Below are positions 787 through 19,969 of a stretch of DNA of 63,704 nucleotides, in pieces. Made by a program: the position numbers and the translations under genes. This DNA comes from Paramecium tetraurelia (Eukaryota): assembly GCA_000165425.1 (NCBI GenBank), contig CT868019.1, forward strand, positions 186,001-249,704, given 5' to 3'. The notes below the pieces were generated by a model. That model had not been told where the DNA came from. It did not search any database and worked only from the letters and a program-made list of their open reading frames with translations. The first letter of the stretch is position 1. Each line of letters opens with the position of its first letter.

Positions 787-3357
787 TCAAATCTATAATT
801 CTTAAATTGATTAATTTATTGTTTAACAATAATTTGCTTACTCTTGACTTTCAGTTTTATTTTTAGTTTTTGTTTTCAATTTGTTTATGAACTCTTAATG
901 CAAAGGGTAAATTTATCTTTTGTTCATTAAAAACTATTTTATTCAAGAAATTACTTTCAAAAATTTAGAAGTGATTAATGAATTAGCAATCGATTCTTAT
1001 AATTCTATTTATTTGTTTTGCTGTTGCTTATTTACCCTATTGAAATATTTAAGCATTTTCTTATTTTATAAATTATTCGTTTTTCTCTTACTTATTTGTA
1101 GAATCCATTATTCGATTTCATTCTGCATCGTAACTGGATTTCGTTTACCATAATCATCCCATATATACATATGATTATCCTCAAACGTTGATTGCGTTTC
1201 AGGTTCCTCCATCTTAATAAAATTATCGAATATCTAATCCATTGGAAATAAATATTGAGCAATCCCTAAACTCAATTGAAACCAAACCAAATAATGGATT
1301 TCATTTTATAAAAGAATTTACCAAATGCAGTTTCCTATAGAGAATAACAAAATTGCCAACTCTATATATGTATCCACCTATTCATCAGCCAATTAACTGC
1401 CTATTGTTGGACCCTTTGAATACCGATAGATTAATAGGTATTTTTCAACCCAATAATCTATGACGATAAAACTTAAAGATATTAAAACCCCTAATGGAAT
1501 GAGTTGAGCATAAAATAGAGATAGCATTAAAGTTTTTGTTATGGTAGCATACTTTTTTGATAAATCTCCAGGCGAGCCTTCAAAAAGTAAATTAGCTTCT
1601 CTCTATGTTAGCGCACAAGTCTATCCCTAATTTTATGACTTTCTGATTTAATATTATCTATAAAAGTAATATGGATCCAATATATTAAATAACCAAGGGA
1701 ATATTGCATTCATGATCAAGACTAAACAAACATCGGATATTAATCCTCCATCTTTCCAAGTTTAAGTTAATATATCCTGATCATTTAATGCTACATTTAC
1801 TAATAGTGGAATTATGGCTGTGTTAAGAAATTAAGCCTATTTAATTATTCAATTAATTACTATGCCTAATTTATTAGCAAAACTGATATTGAATTCGGTT
1901 TAGGTTGAATGCAACTCCAGCGATACAAACTTTTTGATTAACAATCCCATAATGTTATTTAATATTGAGATTATGAAAGAAGCTATTAATCCAAAAACTG
2001 TTATGTACAATTCAATCGAAGTGGATCTACTTTTTTTGTCTGATTGATTTAGTTTATCCTTTAATTATATTTGTTGATACCTGATACACAGAAACACCCA
2101 AAATAGATCCAAAACATATGGCTAAGATAAACAAGGACCCTAAATTTGTTAAAATTTAATATTTAAACTAAATTAAAGGGTTAATACCTAAATTCTCCCA
2201 TATTACATCTCCTGGCTCTGGTGCTCTAATCACATGAGGTGTCTTTCCTTGAAATGTCTTAGTAGATTCTAAAGGATAGAAAAACAGTAATTTTTAAAGA
2301 ATGTACTAGAATTTGGTTTGAGTATGATATTTCCTAATTTACTTAGCTTGAGTCGATGTGTTATAGGTGATAAATGCTACGCCACTAAATTTAAATAGTT
2401 GAGGGTTTTGTTGGAATTAAATAATCTTAGTATTGATTTCATCCAATTGTTATTCTAGATTTAATGTTTATGAGCCCATAGAAAGATTTTATCTATTAAA
2501 TTTCAAATAGATAAATTTACTATTCAGATAGAATTGATGTTATTCTTAATTCATTTTCTATTTTGAGTTTAGTTAATTTATAGTATTCTTAAATGTCAAA
2601 ACCTAATACAATTTATACAATATTTAATTTTGAAATGGAAGATCCATTTAATTTGATTTCCGAAAAGTAGTCTGAAATCTCCTATTTGGTTGAGCTTAAT
2701 GGCAAATTACTTATTTGAATAGAGTAATCAGATATGGAGATATTCTTCTCATCGATTTTTGCAGCTATAATATTCAGGCGTCTTCTGTAATAGATTGAAA
2801 AGACAATCATAACCAAAATATTGCAAATGTCTAATCCCAGCAATATAACATCAGGGGTTCTAACATTGCAACTGAGAAAATACCTAGAGCTATTTGTAAG
2901 TGAGTAAGTGTTATAATAATTCAATTTGCAGACTGAAGAATTAATTTCACATTCTGATCCCTTATAATTATTTAATGCATTGTACAACCCAGATATTAAG
3001 CTAAATAATGATGATCTCATTCTTACAAATTCAAGGATAGTAAAATAGATACAAATATCATGAATTCAAAGAACAATGGTACTCCTGCCCCATTGAAAGC
3101 CAGCTCTTCATTTTTGCAACAAAAACTTAGTTGTGATTCAATTATAGGAAATCCACAGCAAGGACAATATTCGATATTGTCGATGTTTTCTATTTCCTTC
3201 GAATAACTAAACTTATTGGCTTTCTTCGAAATCATCAAAAATTTATTACTGCATGATTTTTGGCTAGTTAAAAGTTTGGAGGCCTTCTAAAAGGCTCGTA
3301 ATCATCATTTTATTCCTCCTAAAGATCCAGATCATTAATTATAGATTTTAAAAACAT
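787..3357 (-). CDS. OSCA/TMEM63 (CSC1-like) calcium-permeable stress-gated channel family protein
   Basis: N-terminal PPNF..A..H and CPCCG, GAGVPLFFEF, SISDYSIQISNLP, APEPGDVIWENLG, many TM helices, several short introns; 3' end assumes the 21-nt intron 934-954. Confidence 0.85.
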
Positions 3358-16969: not shown

Positions 16970-19198
16970 ATGCTCCCTAATTTAGCGAAACAGTATTCAT
17001 TTACACAAGAAGAAATAATTATGCTCAAAAATAGATTTGATAGACTTTGCGATAGAGGGATGATGACAAAATAACAATTTAGAGATTCTTTGGGAATTTT
17101 GGGATTAGAACAATTCTTGGCTGAAAGGATATTTAACTAAATTGATGGGAACAAGGATGGAGTCATAATGTTTGAAGATTTTGTTAAATATTTGAGTATG
17201 CTACTAAATGGATCTACGATCGATAAAGCATTATGGAGCTTTGGAATGTTATCAAGTAATTTGAGCAAGCTTAATAGATAGATAATAAGAGTATTTTAGA
17301 GTTGGAGGACATGGAAAAAATGATTTTTGAGATCTGTTATTTGTGGAATTCAATAACAGGATCGAAGTCAATGCCTAAGAAGGAGTTGGTTTCTGAAATA
17401 TTTCGAATATTTGATAACGATGATGATGGTATTGTTCAATTTGAAGAGTTTAGAGTTGTTTACTAAGAAGGAGTGGAATTGATTGGATGGTATGAATTTC
17501 TAAACAATGAAGATATGAGTACAAATAAAATTAAGGAGGAATGGGAGAATGTAACAAAAAATAAATCAAGAAAAAAAAGAATGACTTTAATTAATCGTTA
17601 ATTGGATGAGTAGACTCCTTAAGATCTTTTGAATAATCAATTAAAAATATTGTAATCAGAAATATAAGGGTGCAGTGAATTAATCAAATAAGAAAAGGAG
17701 AAGGAATAACAGTAAAAGTAAATAAACTTTTTGGCTTCCTTTTATTTTGATGAGAAATCATAAAAAACTCATGGTCCCATTTTTAATGATGGATAAGTTT
17801 AAAAGTTATATGGGGATGATGATCCTGATTAGAATGATGAGCCTTATTTAAAATAGTATAATTTGACTTCGACAATCAATAATGATAGATTTTAAAATAG
17901 CATCATGAATAGATTAAGAAATTTGTTAAAACTAACTGAGGACATTAAAAAGTTGAACAACCAATAAATTGTGCCTAAACTTCCAGAATAAAGTGTGGTA
18001 AAGTAGTTTAAGAAATCATCTCGATCCCCATCTCCCATATCTGTCAATTAGACTATGGATGATATATAGTAATAACAGTAAGAGAATGTTCGTAAGAATT
18101 TATCAATTTATTTTGGACATGAAAATTGGAATTTGGTTTTGAATATGATGATTGGGATTCGTAAGGCAATAAAATCATTACATCCTTTGACTGATGATAT
18201 TTTAATTACTGCAGCACATTTTGAAGTGAAAAATCAATTTGAAATAATACCAAAGAGAACTTAAGTATAAATTTTCTTTATTAAGGGAATTTGATTGGAA
18301 GAAATCTTGTTCATTTTATGAATATTCTCCTTTGATTTTTGAAAGAATAAGAAAAATGTATGGGATATCAAATGATGATTTCTTGAGATCAATAGGACCT
18401 GAACAATTATTGGGAGACTTGATTTTTGGCAATTTAGCTTCTTTAACAGAGAAGGTTTCAAGTGGAAAAAGTGGTAGTTTTTTTTATTATTCTTTTGATG
18501 ACAAATACATGTTGAAGACTATATAGAAGGATGAATTTGTGTTCTTCAAAAGTTTAATAAAAAATTATTATTAACATTTATTAGATAACTATCATTCAAC
18601 GATTATTAAAATCTTTGGACTTTATCAAATTAAAGTCAGCAAAAGTAAAACAAAATACCAAAAAATATATTTTGTTGTAATGCTTAACATATTCTATACT
18701 AATGAGGACATCAATTTTAGATATGATTTGAAAGGGTCTCTTTATTAGAGAACATCAAGAGTCAAGGGTTAAGCATCACTGGATCAAAATATCCCCTTGA
18801 AAGATCTAGATTGGTTGGAAGATAAACAACAAATCTAATTTGATCAAAAGACATTAGAACTCTTCAAAACTTAGTTAATAAAGGATGTAAATTTCTTTAA
18901 ACAAAATAAAATTATTGACTATAGTTTCTTGATTGGAATCGTTGATAATTATAGAATGAACAATGATAATGTGTAAACACAATGCAGATTTTATGAGAGG
19001 TGGAATGGAGGGTGTATTACGAGGGATCAAAAAAGGTTGTATTATTTCGGTATAATTGATATTTTCACTGAGTATAACAACAAAAAGTAATTGGAACACA
19101 AGGTGAAAAGTACTTTTGTTAGCAAAGATGTGTCATGCATTCCTCCTGAGAGTTATGCTGACAGATTTATTAAATTTATTTTGCATTCATTAAAGTGA
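16970..19198 (+). CDS. Phosphatidylinositol phosphate kinase (PIP5K family) with N-terminal NCS/recoverin-like EF-hands
   Basis: EF loops DGNKDGVIMFEDF and DNDDDGIVQFEEF; kinase motifs SSGKSGSFFYYS, MLKTI, YDLKGS, LKDLD, IIDYSFLIG, GIIDIFTEY, SCIPPESYADRF. Confidence 0.93.
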
Positions 19199-19235
19199 TA
19201 TAAATTAAATTTAGATATTATTAAAATTAACATAA

Positions 19236-19370
19236 ATGAAAATTCATAACACTTGGTTTGCTTAAGCCACCTATTTAGGAGTTATCGGTGCATTAGTTTT
19301 TGCTACAACAAGATTTACAGTCCCAGAATATAGACTCTATTACAGAGTTGCCAAAGTTTAACATCTTTGA
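19236..19370 (+). CDS. 44-aa single-pass membrane microprotein
   Basis: MKIHNTWFAQATYLGVIGALVFATTRFTVPEYRLYYRVAKVQHL; clean ATG-TGA ORF, GC-richer than its flanks, one hydrophobic helix. Confidence 0.7.
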
Positions 19371-19411
19371 GACATTCATTATATCAATTATAATAATCAC
19401 ATAAAATATAT

Positions 19412-19969
19412 TCACTTTTAAGTTTATGCAAGCTCTTGTTATATTTGTTCTGCTTATTTCTTCAATTTATGGGCTTGCACTTCCTTTTTGTAATTATCCA
19501 GACTTTCTAATGGAATTAAGAAATATTCATTAAAATCCATTTGATTGATTCTCATCGCCAAATCGAAATCCACTTGAGAAAGTCCATTCAAAGACGGAGA
19601 GAATCTTCATATTTCTAATTATTACAATTCTAAAGTAAGTAGCTCTCCTCCTACCAAATGTACACCTGGACAATTCTTAGTGGAAAGAGCGTCAATCTTT
19701 GAAACATCCTTAATAAATTGTATTCCAGACAAGTAGTCTTCAGTATAGAAATATCTAAACAATCTCAAATCAGTTACCTTCCACCCTAAAATTCAATTAA
19801 TTTCAATGAAAATACCTTCAATCATAGGTTTCATAGTTTCATATAATGCCTTAACTTGAATAGGTGTAAGTGGCTTTCCATCTTAATTATATCTGCAGCA
19901 TTTTTTGAATTATTTTTTGGTTATAATCTCACTAAAAAAAGCAGAATATTTAGGTTTAAAGAGCAACAT
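19412..19969 (-). CDS. Pterin-4-alpha-carbinolamine dehydratase (PCD)-fold protein with basic N-terminal extension
   Basis: GWKV..LRLFRYFYTEDYLSGIQFIKDVSKID...NCPGVHL...LTLELFSPSLNGLSQVDFDLAMRIN; two introns (one is 19605-19625). Confidence 0.7.

What the first reader, a model, noticed from the sequence alone, without database searches (positions are those of the whole stretch)
19236..19370. 44-aa transmembrane microprotein squeezed between two genes
Seen: a complete ORF starting 37 nt after the PIP5K stop and ending 41 nt from the convergent PCD-like stop, with one helix (ATYLGVIGALVFATT) and a Tyr/Arg-rich tail. It is below the ORF-track cutoff and easily missed by annotation. Inference: size and composition resemble small accessory subunits of mitochondrial inner-membrane complexes, which are numerous in ciliates.
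Basis: partly seen in the sequence, partly recalled or inferred. Interest (0 to 1): 0.6.

Follow-up and report, generated by a model that had tools for sequence, protein, structure and literature searches.

The report
Paramecium copy of complex II subunit SDHTT11
The tiny 44-residue open reading frame is a real, strongly transcribed Paramecium gene, and it is the counterpart of SDHTT11, the smallest membrane subunit seen in the solved structure of Tetrahymena mitochondrial complex II.

Summary
Under the ciliate code, 19236-19370 (+) gives 44 aa, 37 nt after the PIP5K stop and 41 nt before the stop of the convergent gene.

An ORF of this length is not unusual here: 450 ORFs of 44 aa or more lie in the 63.7-kb window. 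Four other lines show it is a gene:

- **Composition:** GC is 34% in the ORF, against 5% and 15% in the two spacers.
- **Transcription:** three stranded oligo-dT RNA runs give a discrete plus-sense transcript confined to about 19231-19391. Its depth is 149-328, against 2.6 or less on PIP5K and 25 or less on the convergent gene.
- **Conservation:** 44-aa relatives at 77-95% identity occur in other Paramecium records.
- **Paralogue reads:** all three minor read variants are synonymous third-position changes.

A search of all PDB chains returns only SDHTT11, the 46-aa single-helix subunit of Tetrahymena thermophila complex II. The match is end to end and ungapped. E improves from 0.011 to 9.3e-5 as the Paramecium profile grows, and hhalign gives 92.6%. 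None of 5000 shuffles reaches the observed score.

This is a new member of a known kind. The protein is already deposited, but without a name.

The parts
19236..19370 (+). Coding sequence of the 44-aa single-helix protein (ATG 19236-19238, TGA 19368-19370; TAA read as Q at codons 10 and 42). Proposed Paramecium orthologue of SDHTT11.
   Evidence: Translation. GC is 34%, with 40/40/22% at codon positions 1/2/3. Relatives. PDB match. Controls.
19231..19391 (+). Approximate extent of the small polyA+ transcript. Fragment ends cluster at 19231-19245 on the left and at 19369-19371 on the right, and depth falls to background by about 19392.
   Evidence: tables 2 and 6. Depth is 149-328 in the bin 19281-19317. 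All reads have the first mate on the minus strand, as do the PIP5K reads, so the RNA has plus-strand sense. True ends were not mapped, because there is no cap or 3'-end data.
19199..19235 (+). 37-nt spacer of 5% GC between the PIP5K stop and the ATG. It must hold the transcription start and a very short 5' UTR.
   Evidence: depth 0-0.5 in the bin 19170-19206, then a steep rise. Paramecium 5' UTRs have a mean of 21.7 nt (PMC5485702, passages read).
19371..19411 (.). 41-nt spacer of 15% GC between the two convergent stop codons. It is 3' UTR space shared by both genes.
   Evidence: Paramecium 3' UTRs have a mean of 44.6 nt.
18356..19198 (+). Upstream neighbour: the last exon of a PIP5K gene. It is context and not part of the small gene.
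   Evidence: Pfam PF01504, E 1.8e-73. RNA depth is 2.6 or less.
19412..19787 (-). Downstream convergent neighbour: the last two exons (19412-19604 and 19626-19787) of a weakly pterin-4a-carbinolamine-dehydratase-like gene, with a 21-nt intron at 19605-19625. It is context only.
   Evidence: Pterin_4a matches below the cut-off. Loose ends at 19604 and 19626 in the RNA reads. Sequence and frames.

Best explanation
The ORF is a stand-alone nuclear gene of a Paramecium of the aurelia complex. It encodes a 44-residue single-pass membrane protein orthologous to SDHTT11, the smallest ciliate-specific subunit of mitochondrial complex II (succinate:ubiquinone oxidoreductase) in Tetrahymena thermophila. 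Shown here: the gene is transcribed on its own at a high level, the protein is conserved, and it resembles SDHTT11 specifically and over its whole length. Inferred from that homology and from the published Tetrahymena structures: the protein is imported into the mitochondrial inner membrane and sits as one transmembrane helix in the membrane anchor of complex II. In ciliates the canonical anchor subunits SDHC and SDHD are cut down to one helix each and are partly replaced by lineage-specific subunits. The protein would therefore have a structural role, helping to build or stabilise the membrane domain. It would not be catalytic, since it has no cofactor-binding motif. By the positive-inside rule, the basic C-terminal tail (R26, R33, R37, K40) would face the matrix. 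That orientation is inferred and was not checked against coordinates.
For: **Transcription.** Three oligo-dT stranded RNA runs with the same species label laid 637, 408 and 338 reads on window 18800-19900. Peak-bin depth over the ORF is 328, 211 and 149. The largest PIP5K bin reaches 2.6, 1.9 and 1.9, and the largest bin of the convergent gene reaches 21.9, 14.8 and 25.1. Read orientation matches the plus-strand neighbour. No joint was seen, so the ORF is not spliced.

**Composition.** GC is 34% in the ORF against 5% and 15% in the spacers, and third codon positions are the most AT-rich.

**Gene layout.** Spacers of 37 and 41 nt fit Paramecium UTRs, which average 21.7 nt (5') and 44.6 nt (3') (PMC5485702). 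They also fit intergenic regions of 'a few dozen base pairs' (PMC11334263).

**Conservation.**
- 44-aa relatives occur in P. sonneborni and P. primaurelia (two intact copies), in a Logan contig and in JGI records, at 77-95% identity, with 26 invariant columns among 6 sequences.
- A 55%-identical partial relative, P0011, was also found.
- The three minor read variants (19322 C>T, 19343 C>T, 19349 T>A) are all synonymous third positions.
- A loose end reads G-I-L where the window has G-V-I. This matches the deposited P. tetraurelia paralogue P0009.

**Homology to SDHTT11.**
- phmmer against 177,635 distinct PDB sequences returns only SDHTT11, E 0.011, query 2-42 against chain 4-44, ungapped.
- The profile of 6 sequences gives E 9.8e-4 and the profile of 7 gives E 9.3e-5.
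- hhalign gives probability 92.6% over 41 columns at 32% identity.
- None of 5000 shuffles of the query reaches the observed ungapped score of 64 (mean 21.7, sd 4.1, max 54).
- Among 1233 six-frame ORF pieces of the window, this ORF scores 64 and the next best 38.
- In MAFFT register, R26, the acidic residue 31, the basic residue 33, Y13, T25, Y32, Y35 and A39 coincide. Hydropathy correlates at r = 0.82.

**What SDHTT11 is.** Both structure papers list it as nuclear-encoded and 46 residues long, and Han et al. add 1 TMH and modelled residues 4-45 (PMC10227065 Supplementary Data 1; PMC10060162 supplement). It is one of 11 ciliate-specific subunits of complex II, in which SDHC and SDHD are reduced and partly replaced.
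Against: - The similarity to SDHTT11 is modest: 13 of 43 identities, 19-25 bits. It joins two short, compositionally biased single-helix peptides.
- No intermediate from a third ciliate lineage was found. The profile search of 1.84 billion representatives gave 10 hits at E up to 0.001. Seven are Paramecium-type relatives. I judged the other three (P0012, P0014, P0015) to be unrelated repeat proteins. The Tetrahymena protein was not recovered at that library size.
- No protein-level evidence for Paramecium was seen: no proteomics, no localisation, no structure.
- There is no recognisable mitochondrial presequence, though this is usual for such small inner-membrane subunits (recalled).
- The AlphaFold model is one helix, residues 3-42, at only moderate confidence (pLDDT 67.5). 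It discriminates nothing.
- No orthologous DNA could be obtained, so dN/dS was not computed.
Confidence: 0.82

Rival explanations
1. It is a real, conserved small membrane protein, but it is not a complex II subunit in Paramecium. It would sit in another inner-membrane complex or another organelle membrane, and the likeness to SDHTT11 would be convergence between short tail-basic single-helix peptides or very distant paralogy.
For: The match is only 19-25 bits. No Pfam family covers either protein (0 families for the 8 members at E up to 10). There is no physical evidence from Paramecium.
Against: The match is the only one in the whole PDB at E up to 10. It is end to end, ungapped, and between proteins of 44 and 46 residues. 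It strengthens as more divergent Paramecium sequences enter the profile. Composition-matched controls do not come near it. The PDB copy holds the other small subunits of the Tetrahymena complexes solved in the same entries (150 proteins in that supercomplex), and none of them matched.
Confidence: 0.12
2. The abundant small polyA+ transcript acts as RNA, and the ORF is incidental.
For: The transcript is only about 150-160 nt long. ORFs of this length are common by chance under a one-stop code.
Against: - The amino-acid sequence and the exact length of 44 codons are kept across Paramecium species, with conservative replacements.
- The paralogue differences seen in reads are synonymous or conservative.
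- GC by codon position is typical of coding sequence.
- There is no Rfam match at E up to 1 in 19100-19500.
- The protein-level match to a subunit seen in a solved structure would otherwise be unexplained.
Confidence: 0.03
3. It is a chance ORF inside the overlapping 3' UTRs of the two convergent neighbours.
For: It lies between two convergent stop codons only 213 nt apart. Overlapping chance ORFs exist on both strands.
Against: RNA depth over the ORF is roughly 80 to 125 times that of PIP5K. It rises abruptly about 33-47 nt after the PIP5K stop, and the reads are antisense to the convergent gene's reads. Conservation and the SDHTT11 match also speak against it.
Confidence: 0.02

Closest known systems
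SDHTT11 of Tetrahymena thermophila complex II (PDB 8bqs chain CO, 8b6g, 8gym, 8gzu; source EST DY684362.1)
   Same: - It is nuclear-encoded and of nearly the same length (46 against 44 residues).
- It has one transmembrane helix followed by a Tyr- and Arg/Lys-rich tail.
- It aligns end to end without gaps, at 30-32% identity.
- Y13, T25, R26, D/E31, Y32, K/R33, Y35 and A39 are shared.
- It belongs to no Pfam family.
- Gene annotation handles it poorly.
   Different: About 70% of positions differ. The helix core is G/A/V-rich in Paramecium and T/F/Y-rich in Tetrahymena. The Paramecium protein is present in several copies per genome (ohnologues or duplicates). Its membership of complex II is inferred and has not been observed.
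Other single-helix ciliate-specific complex II subunits (SDHTT6, SDHTT9, SDHTT10) and the reduced SDHC and SDHD of Tetrahymena
   Same: They are small nuclear or mitochondrial single-TMH proteins that make up the non-canonical membrane anchor (PMC10227065, section 8 and Supplementary Data 1).
   Different: None of them was matched by the query or its profiles in the PDB search at E up to 10.
Small supernumerary single-helix subunits of respiratory complexes in other eukaryotes, for example lineage-specific complex II subunits of plants and trypanosomatids (recalled, not examined here)
   Same: The general kind is the same: very short, lineage-restricted, structural membrane subunits added to a conserved catalytic core.
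   Different: No sequence relation was detected. These are independent acquisitions.

Membership tests
SDHTT11 (ciliate complex II subunit) | Significant full-length sequence similarity to the T. thermophila protein seen in the structure | tested here: met
   It is the only PDB match. E is 0.011 for the single sequence, 9.8e-4 for the 6-sequence profile and 9.3e-5 for the 7-sequence profile. hhalign gives 92.6%. None of 5000 shuffles reaches the score, and the ORF is top of 1233 window ORF pieces, 64 against 38.
SDHTT11 (ciliate complex II subunit) | About 45 residues with one transmembrane helix | tested here: met
   The lengths are 44 aa against 46 aa, with 1 TMH in the Tetrahymena protein. 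The hydropathy profiles correlate at r = 0.82. AlphaFold gives one helix, residues 3-42, at pLDDT 67.5.
SDHTT11 (ciliate complex II subunit) | Nuclear-encoded and expressed as polyA+ mRNA | tested here: met
   The ORF lies between nuclear genes and uses TAA as Q. It is covered by oligo-dT RNA reads at depth 149-328. The Tetrahymena protein is listed as nuclear and known from an EST.
SDHTT11 (ciliate complex II subunit) | Physical presence in complex II of the mitochondrial inner membrane | not testable with these tools
   This needs Paramecium complexome proteomics, cryo-EM or localisation. No paper holding both 'SDHTT' and 'Paramecium' was found in the searched library.
SDHTT11 (ciliate complex II subunit) | Conservation of the residues that contact neighbouring subunits or lipids in the structure | not tested
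   Coordinates of 8bqs and 8gym could not be inspected here. Only the list of shared residues is available.
Canonical SDHC/SDHD membrane anchor (Pfam Sdh_cyt and CybS; names recalled) | Match to the family profiles, or to any solved SDHC or SDHD chain | tested here: not met
   There are 0 Pfam families for the 8 members at E up to 10. No PDB sequence other than SDHTT11 is matched at E up to 10.

The most novel reading that the evidence does not exclude
SDHTT11-type helices may be relics of the ancestral six-helix SDHC/SDHD anchor, and not newly invented subunits. On this reading, a helix split off when the ciliate anchor genes fragmented, as happened to ND1, ND2, ND5 and COX3 in the same supercomplex. 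It then persisted as a separate nuclear microgene across the Paramecium-Tetrahymena divergence. The conserved Y13, T25-R26 and D/E31-Y32 positions would then mark an old quinone-site or lipid-site contact. [quoted passage not shown] No sequence link to SDHC or SDHD was found.
Probability: 0.06. Interest if true: 0.6.

Novelty: new member of a known kind. Interest (0 to 1): 0.33.

Why it matters
- **Reach of SDHTT11.** SDHTT11 was defined only from cryo-EM density plus an EST in one species. This finding shows it is conserved between Tetrahymena and Paramecium, so it is a feature of ciliate complex II and not peculiar to Tetrahymena. The conserved positions are now candidates for functional contacts.
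- **A name for deposited proteins.** Several Paramecium proteins deposited as 'unnamed protein product' get a name. The mis-framed 'transmembrane protein' models of sister copies are flagged for correction.
- **Method.** A 135-nt gene with spacers of 37 and 41 nt can be told from the very many chance ORFs of a one-stop-codon genome by its step in composition, by stranded RNA depth and by a PDB sequence search.

The biological surprise is small. An orthologue of a respiratory subunit in a related ciliate is what one would expect.

Tried and rejected
- **Whole genome of the window:** none is held. I therefore made no search for the ohnologue, for other SDHTT subunits, or for genome-wide ORF statistics.
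- **Orthologous DNA for dN/dS and synteny:** Re-sent with alignment A2, it found 101 pattern matches, none confirmed. A degenerate DNA pattern for VFATTxFTVPEY found 0 matches in metagenome contigs.
- **RNA holders:** no RNA holder was listed among the indexed runs. The expression evidence comes only from the three raw-read runs that were laid. Contig run X3 gave one piece, 18800-19202. It ends 4 nt after the PIP5K stop, which is not evidence of a transcript end.
- **More distant family members:**
  - The word-indexed search with the Tetrahymena stretch found only the PDB-derived entry.
  - The search with the joint alignment A4 found nothing new.
  - The exhaustive profile search added only Paramecium-type sequences, plus three repeat proteins that I set aside as spurious. 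P0014 and P0015 were read. P0012 was not fetched.
- **Second copy in the window:** tblastn found one weak hit at 1515..1414 (-), E 0.002. It is a membrane stretch inside a 256-aa ORF (943..1713) and not a paralogue.
- **Family libraries:** Rfam gave no match. Pfam gave no family.
- **Structure:** the AlphaFold model is a plain helix of moderate confidence. I did not send it to a fold search, because a single helix cannot discriminate.
- **Earlier notes of this scan:** nothing on this genome, this sequence or these words.
- **Complex prediction:** not used, because no Paramecium complex II partner sequence was in hand.

Full report
**Observation**

The window is AT-rich (27% GC) and reads as a ciliate nuclear genome with TAA and TAG as glutamine. 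Under table 6, 19236-19370 (+) gives the 44-residue protein MKIHNTWFAQATYLGVIGALVFATTRFTVPEYRLYYRVAKVQHL, with TAA at codons 10 and 42.

The upstream plus-strand frame ends at 19196-19198. It is a PIP5K (PF01504, E 1.8e-73). The convergent minus-strand frame ends at 19412-19414. Its last two exons match Pterin_4a only below the cut-off (E 0.081 and 0.051), in co-linear order.

**Is the ORF more than chance?**

As an ORF, no. With a single stop codon in a 27% GC genome, 450 of the 1065 ATG-started ORFs in the window reach 44 aa, about 7 per kb. ORFs of 43, 88 and 104 aa overlap this one on the other strand.

What differs is everything else. The ORF has 34% GC, with 40/40/22% at codon positions 1/2/3. 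The flanking spacers have 5% and 15%, so the step in composition falls exactly at the start and stop codons.

**Transcription**

No indexed run was on record as RNA. Three raw-read oligo-dT paired RNA-seq runs with the same species label were laid on 18800-19900 and gave 637, 408 and 338 reads.

| Region | X19 | X20 | X21 |
|---|---|---|---|
| PIP5K, any bin up to 19206 | at most 2.6 | at most 1.9 | at most 1.9 |
| Bin 19207-19243 | 15.9 | 11.5 | 9.7 |
| Bin 19281-19317 (peak over the ORF) | 328 | 211 | 149 |
| Bin 19355-19391 | 59 | 32 | 25 |
| Bin 19392-19428 | 2.8 | 1.5 | 1.0 |
| Convergent gene, largest bin | 21.9 | 14.8 | 25.1 |

The rows for the bins from 19207 to 19428 give depth on the orientation of the small gene's reads (first mate on the minus strand).

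- All reads over the ORF have the first mate on the minus strand, like those of the plus-strand PIP5K and unlike those of the minus-strand neighbour. The RNA is therefore sense to the ORF.
- Fragment ends pile up at 19231-19245 and at 19369-19371.
- No joint was reported, so the ORF is unspliced.
- This is a separate transcription unit of about 150-160 nt. It is far more abundant than either neighbour and is not a 3' UTR.
- Such tight packing is normal for Paramecium. 5' UTRs average 21.7 nt and 3' UTRs 44.6 nt (PMC5485702, passages). Intergenic regions are 'a few dozen base pairs' (PMC11334263, passages).

**Conservation**

The word-indexed protein search found 4 proteins, and the cluster look-up added members.

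- The identical protein is already deposited for this genome (NCBI, UniRef, EukProt), without a name.
- 44-aa relatives exist in P. sonneborni (CAD8065312.1), in P. primaurelia (CAD8045263.1 and a second copy, CAD8045206.1), in a Logan contig and in JGI records.
- Six full-length sequences are 77-95% identical to the window's. They have 26 invariant columns, and the replacements are conservative: V/I/L/F, T/S, R/K, Q/R.
- The exhaustive profile search listed 10 proteins at E up to 0.001.
  - Seven are Paramecium-type relatives. One of them is a more divergent partial sequence, P0011, at 55% identity.
  - I set the other three aside as repeat proteins. P0014 and P0015 were read. P0012 has 4937 aa with 8 short stretches and was not fetched.
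- The RNA reads also carry traces of a paralogue.
  - Minor variants at 19322, 19343 and 19349 are all third-position synonymous changes: GTC>GTT, TAC>TAT and GTT>GTA. I worked these out by hand.
  - A loose end before 19287 reads G-I-L where the window has G-V-I. That is exactly the difference shown by the deposited P. tetraurelia protein P0009.
- No orthologous DNA could be fetched, so no formal dN/dS was computed.

**Identity**

- phmmer of the 44-aa protein against all PDB chain sequences (177,635 distinct) matched, at E up to 10, two sequences only. Both are SDHTT11 of T. thermophila (8bqs, 8gym, 8gzu, 8b6g). E is 0.011, query 2-42 on chain 4-44, without gaps.
- A profile of six Paramecium sequences lowered E to 9.8e-4. 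Adding P0011 lowered it to 9.3e-5 at 25.3 bits.
- hhalign of that profile against the Tetrahymena sequence gave probability 92.6% over 41 columns at 32% identity.
- Controls: the ungapped BLOSUM62 score is 64, with 13 of 43 identities. Across 5000 shuffles of the query the mean is 21.7, the sd 4.1 and the maximum 54, and none reaches 64. Against all 1233 stop-to-stop pieces of 30 aa or more in the six frames of the window, a composition-matched natural null, this ORF scores 64 and the next best 38.
- In register, R26, the acidic residue 31, the basic residue 33, Y13, T25, Y32, Y35 and A39 coincide. The hydropathy profiles correlate at r = 0.82.
- Neither protein matches any Pfam family. The locus matches no Rfam family.

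**What SDHTT11 is**

Tetrahymena complex II has the four canonical subunits plus 11 ciliate-specific ones, SDHTT1-11, numbered by decreasing mass. SDHC (7 kDa) and SDHD (5 kDa) are strongly reduced and partly replaced by ciliate-specific subunits. I read passages of the bioRxiv version 10.1101/2022.06.26.497646 and of PMC10060162.

Han et al. describe a 288-kDa, Y-shaped, heme-less type-D enzyme with seven transmembrane subunits (PMC10227065, section 8 read in full). Their Supplementary Data 1 lists SDHTT11 as nuclear, 46 residues, modelled 4-45, one TMH. Its only identifier is the EST DY684362.1, with no UniProt entry. The supplement of the Nature paper says the same. Figures and coordinates could not be seen, so I cannot say which subunits it touches.

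**Mechanism**

*Shown:* an independently and highly expressed nuclear microgene; a conserved 44-residue product; a specific full-length likeness to a subunit that is physically present in a solved ciliate complex II.

*Inferred:* the Paramecium protein is imported into the inner membrane and occupies the equivalent single-helix position in the complex II membrane anchor. Its role would be structural. It has no cysteine or histidine motif for a cofactor, and the single H4 is in the N-terminal tail. By the positive-inside rule the basic C-terminal tail should face the matrix.

My confidence is about 0.97 that it is a real coding gene, about 0.9 that it is homologous to SDHTT11, and about 0.82 for the whole statement, including membership of complex II.

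**Rivals**

- A conserved membrane peptide of some other complex: 0.12.
- A functional RNA with an incidental ORF: 0.03.
- A chance ORF in the neighbours' UTRs: 0.02, in effect excluded.

**Novelty**

No paper in the searched library holds both 'SDHTT' and 'Paramecium'. 'SDHTT11' occurs in one preprint and 'SDHTT1' with 'Tetrahymena' in five papers. The two main structure papers do not mention Paramecium in their main texts. Subscription journals and bioRxiv supplements were not searchable.

The deposited Paramecium proteins are unnamed. This is therefore a new member of a known kind: it gives a name to an existing uncharacterised gene and widens the known range of SDHTT11. The interest is moderate to low.

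**Side observations**

- Several deposited models of sister copies keep the first 20-32 residues and then leave the frame, running on through the antisense of the downstream gene. They are listed as 'transmembrane protein' of 120-210 aa.
  - P0008 and P0010 fit the window ORF with 28 or 31 nt skipped from the equivalent of 19320. That gives 42 of 70 identities, against 28 and 26 without a skip.
  - P0013 and P0016 fit a 1-nt skip near 19293-19296. That gives 46 and 48 of 70, against 19.
  - The script did not resolve P0009, which comes from another locus.
- The window copy shows no such joint in RNA. Variant reads attributed to the paralogue cover 19322 and 19343, inside the piece those models skip. 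This suggests that the skipped pieces are spurious introns, but it cannot be settled without the DNA.

Noticed in passing
window 19320-19350 (equivalent positions in other Paramecium records P0008, P0009, P0010, P0013, P0016): Deposited gene models of sister copies in P. pentaurelia, P. tetraurelia (GSPATT00024248001), P. octaurelia and P. primaurelia share the N-terminus of the 44-aa protein and then shift frame. The shifts are consistent with a skipped 28- or 31-nt piece or a 1-nt indel. The models then extend to 120-210 aa through the antisense of the downstream gene. They are likely annotation artefacts or decayed duplicates.
   Followed up: partly
window 19278-19349: The RNA reads carry a minority second sequence: G-I-L in place of G-V-I, and synonymous variants at 19322, 19343 and 19349, at about 4-12% of reads. 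This matches the deposited P. tetraurelia paralogue, so at least two copies are expressed.
   Followed up: partly
window 19368-19372: Many RNA fragment ends fall at 19369 and 19371, on or next to the TGA stop codon (19368-19370). This points either to an extremely short 3' UTR or to a priming or trimming bias in the AT-rich tail. It was not resolved.
   Followed up: no
window 19605-19625 (-) and about 19788 (-): The convergent PCD-like gene has a 21-nt GTA...AG intron. It is supported by loose ends at 19604 and 19626 in the RNA reads. There is a further splice junction at 19787.
   Followed up: partly
window 943-1713 (-): A 256-aa ORF with several hydrophobic stretches gave a weak tblastn hit to the 44-aa protein (1515..1414, E 0.002). 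I judged it a chance likeness between membrane helices. The protein itself was not identified.
   Followed up: partly
P. primaurelia contig of 911,660 bases (records CAD8045206.1, CAD8045238.1, CAD8045263.1): Three related models lie on one contig, within 57 accession numbers of each other, and two lie on one P. pentaurelia contig. This suggests local duplicates in addition to whole-genome-duplication copies. Only one copy lies in this window.
   Followed up: no
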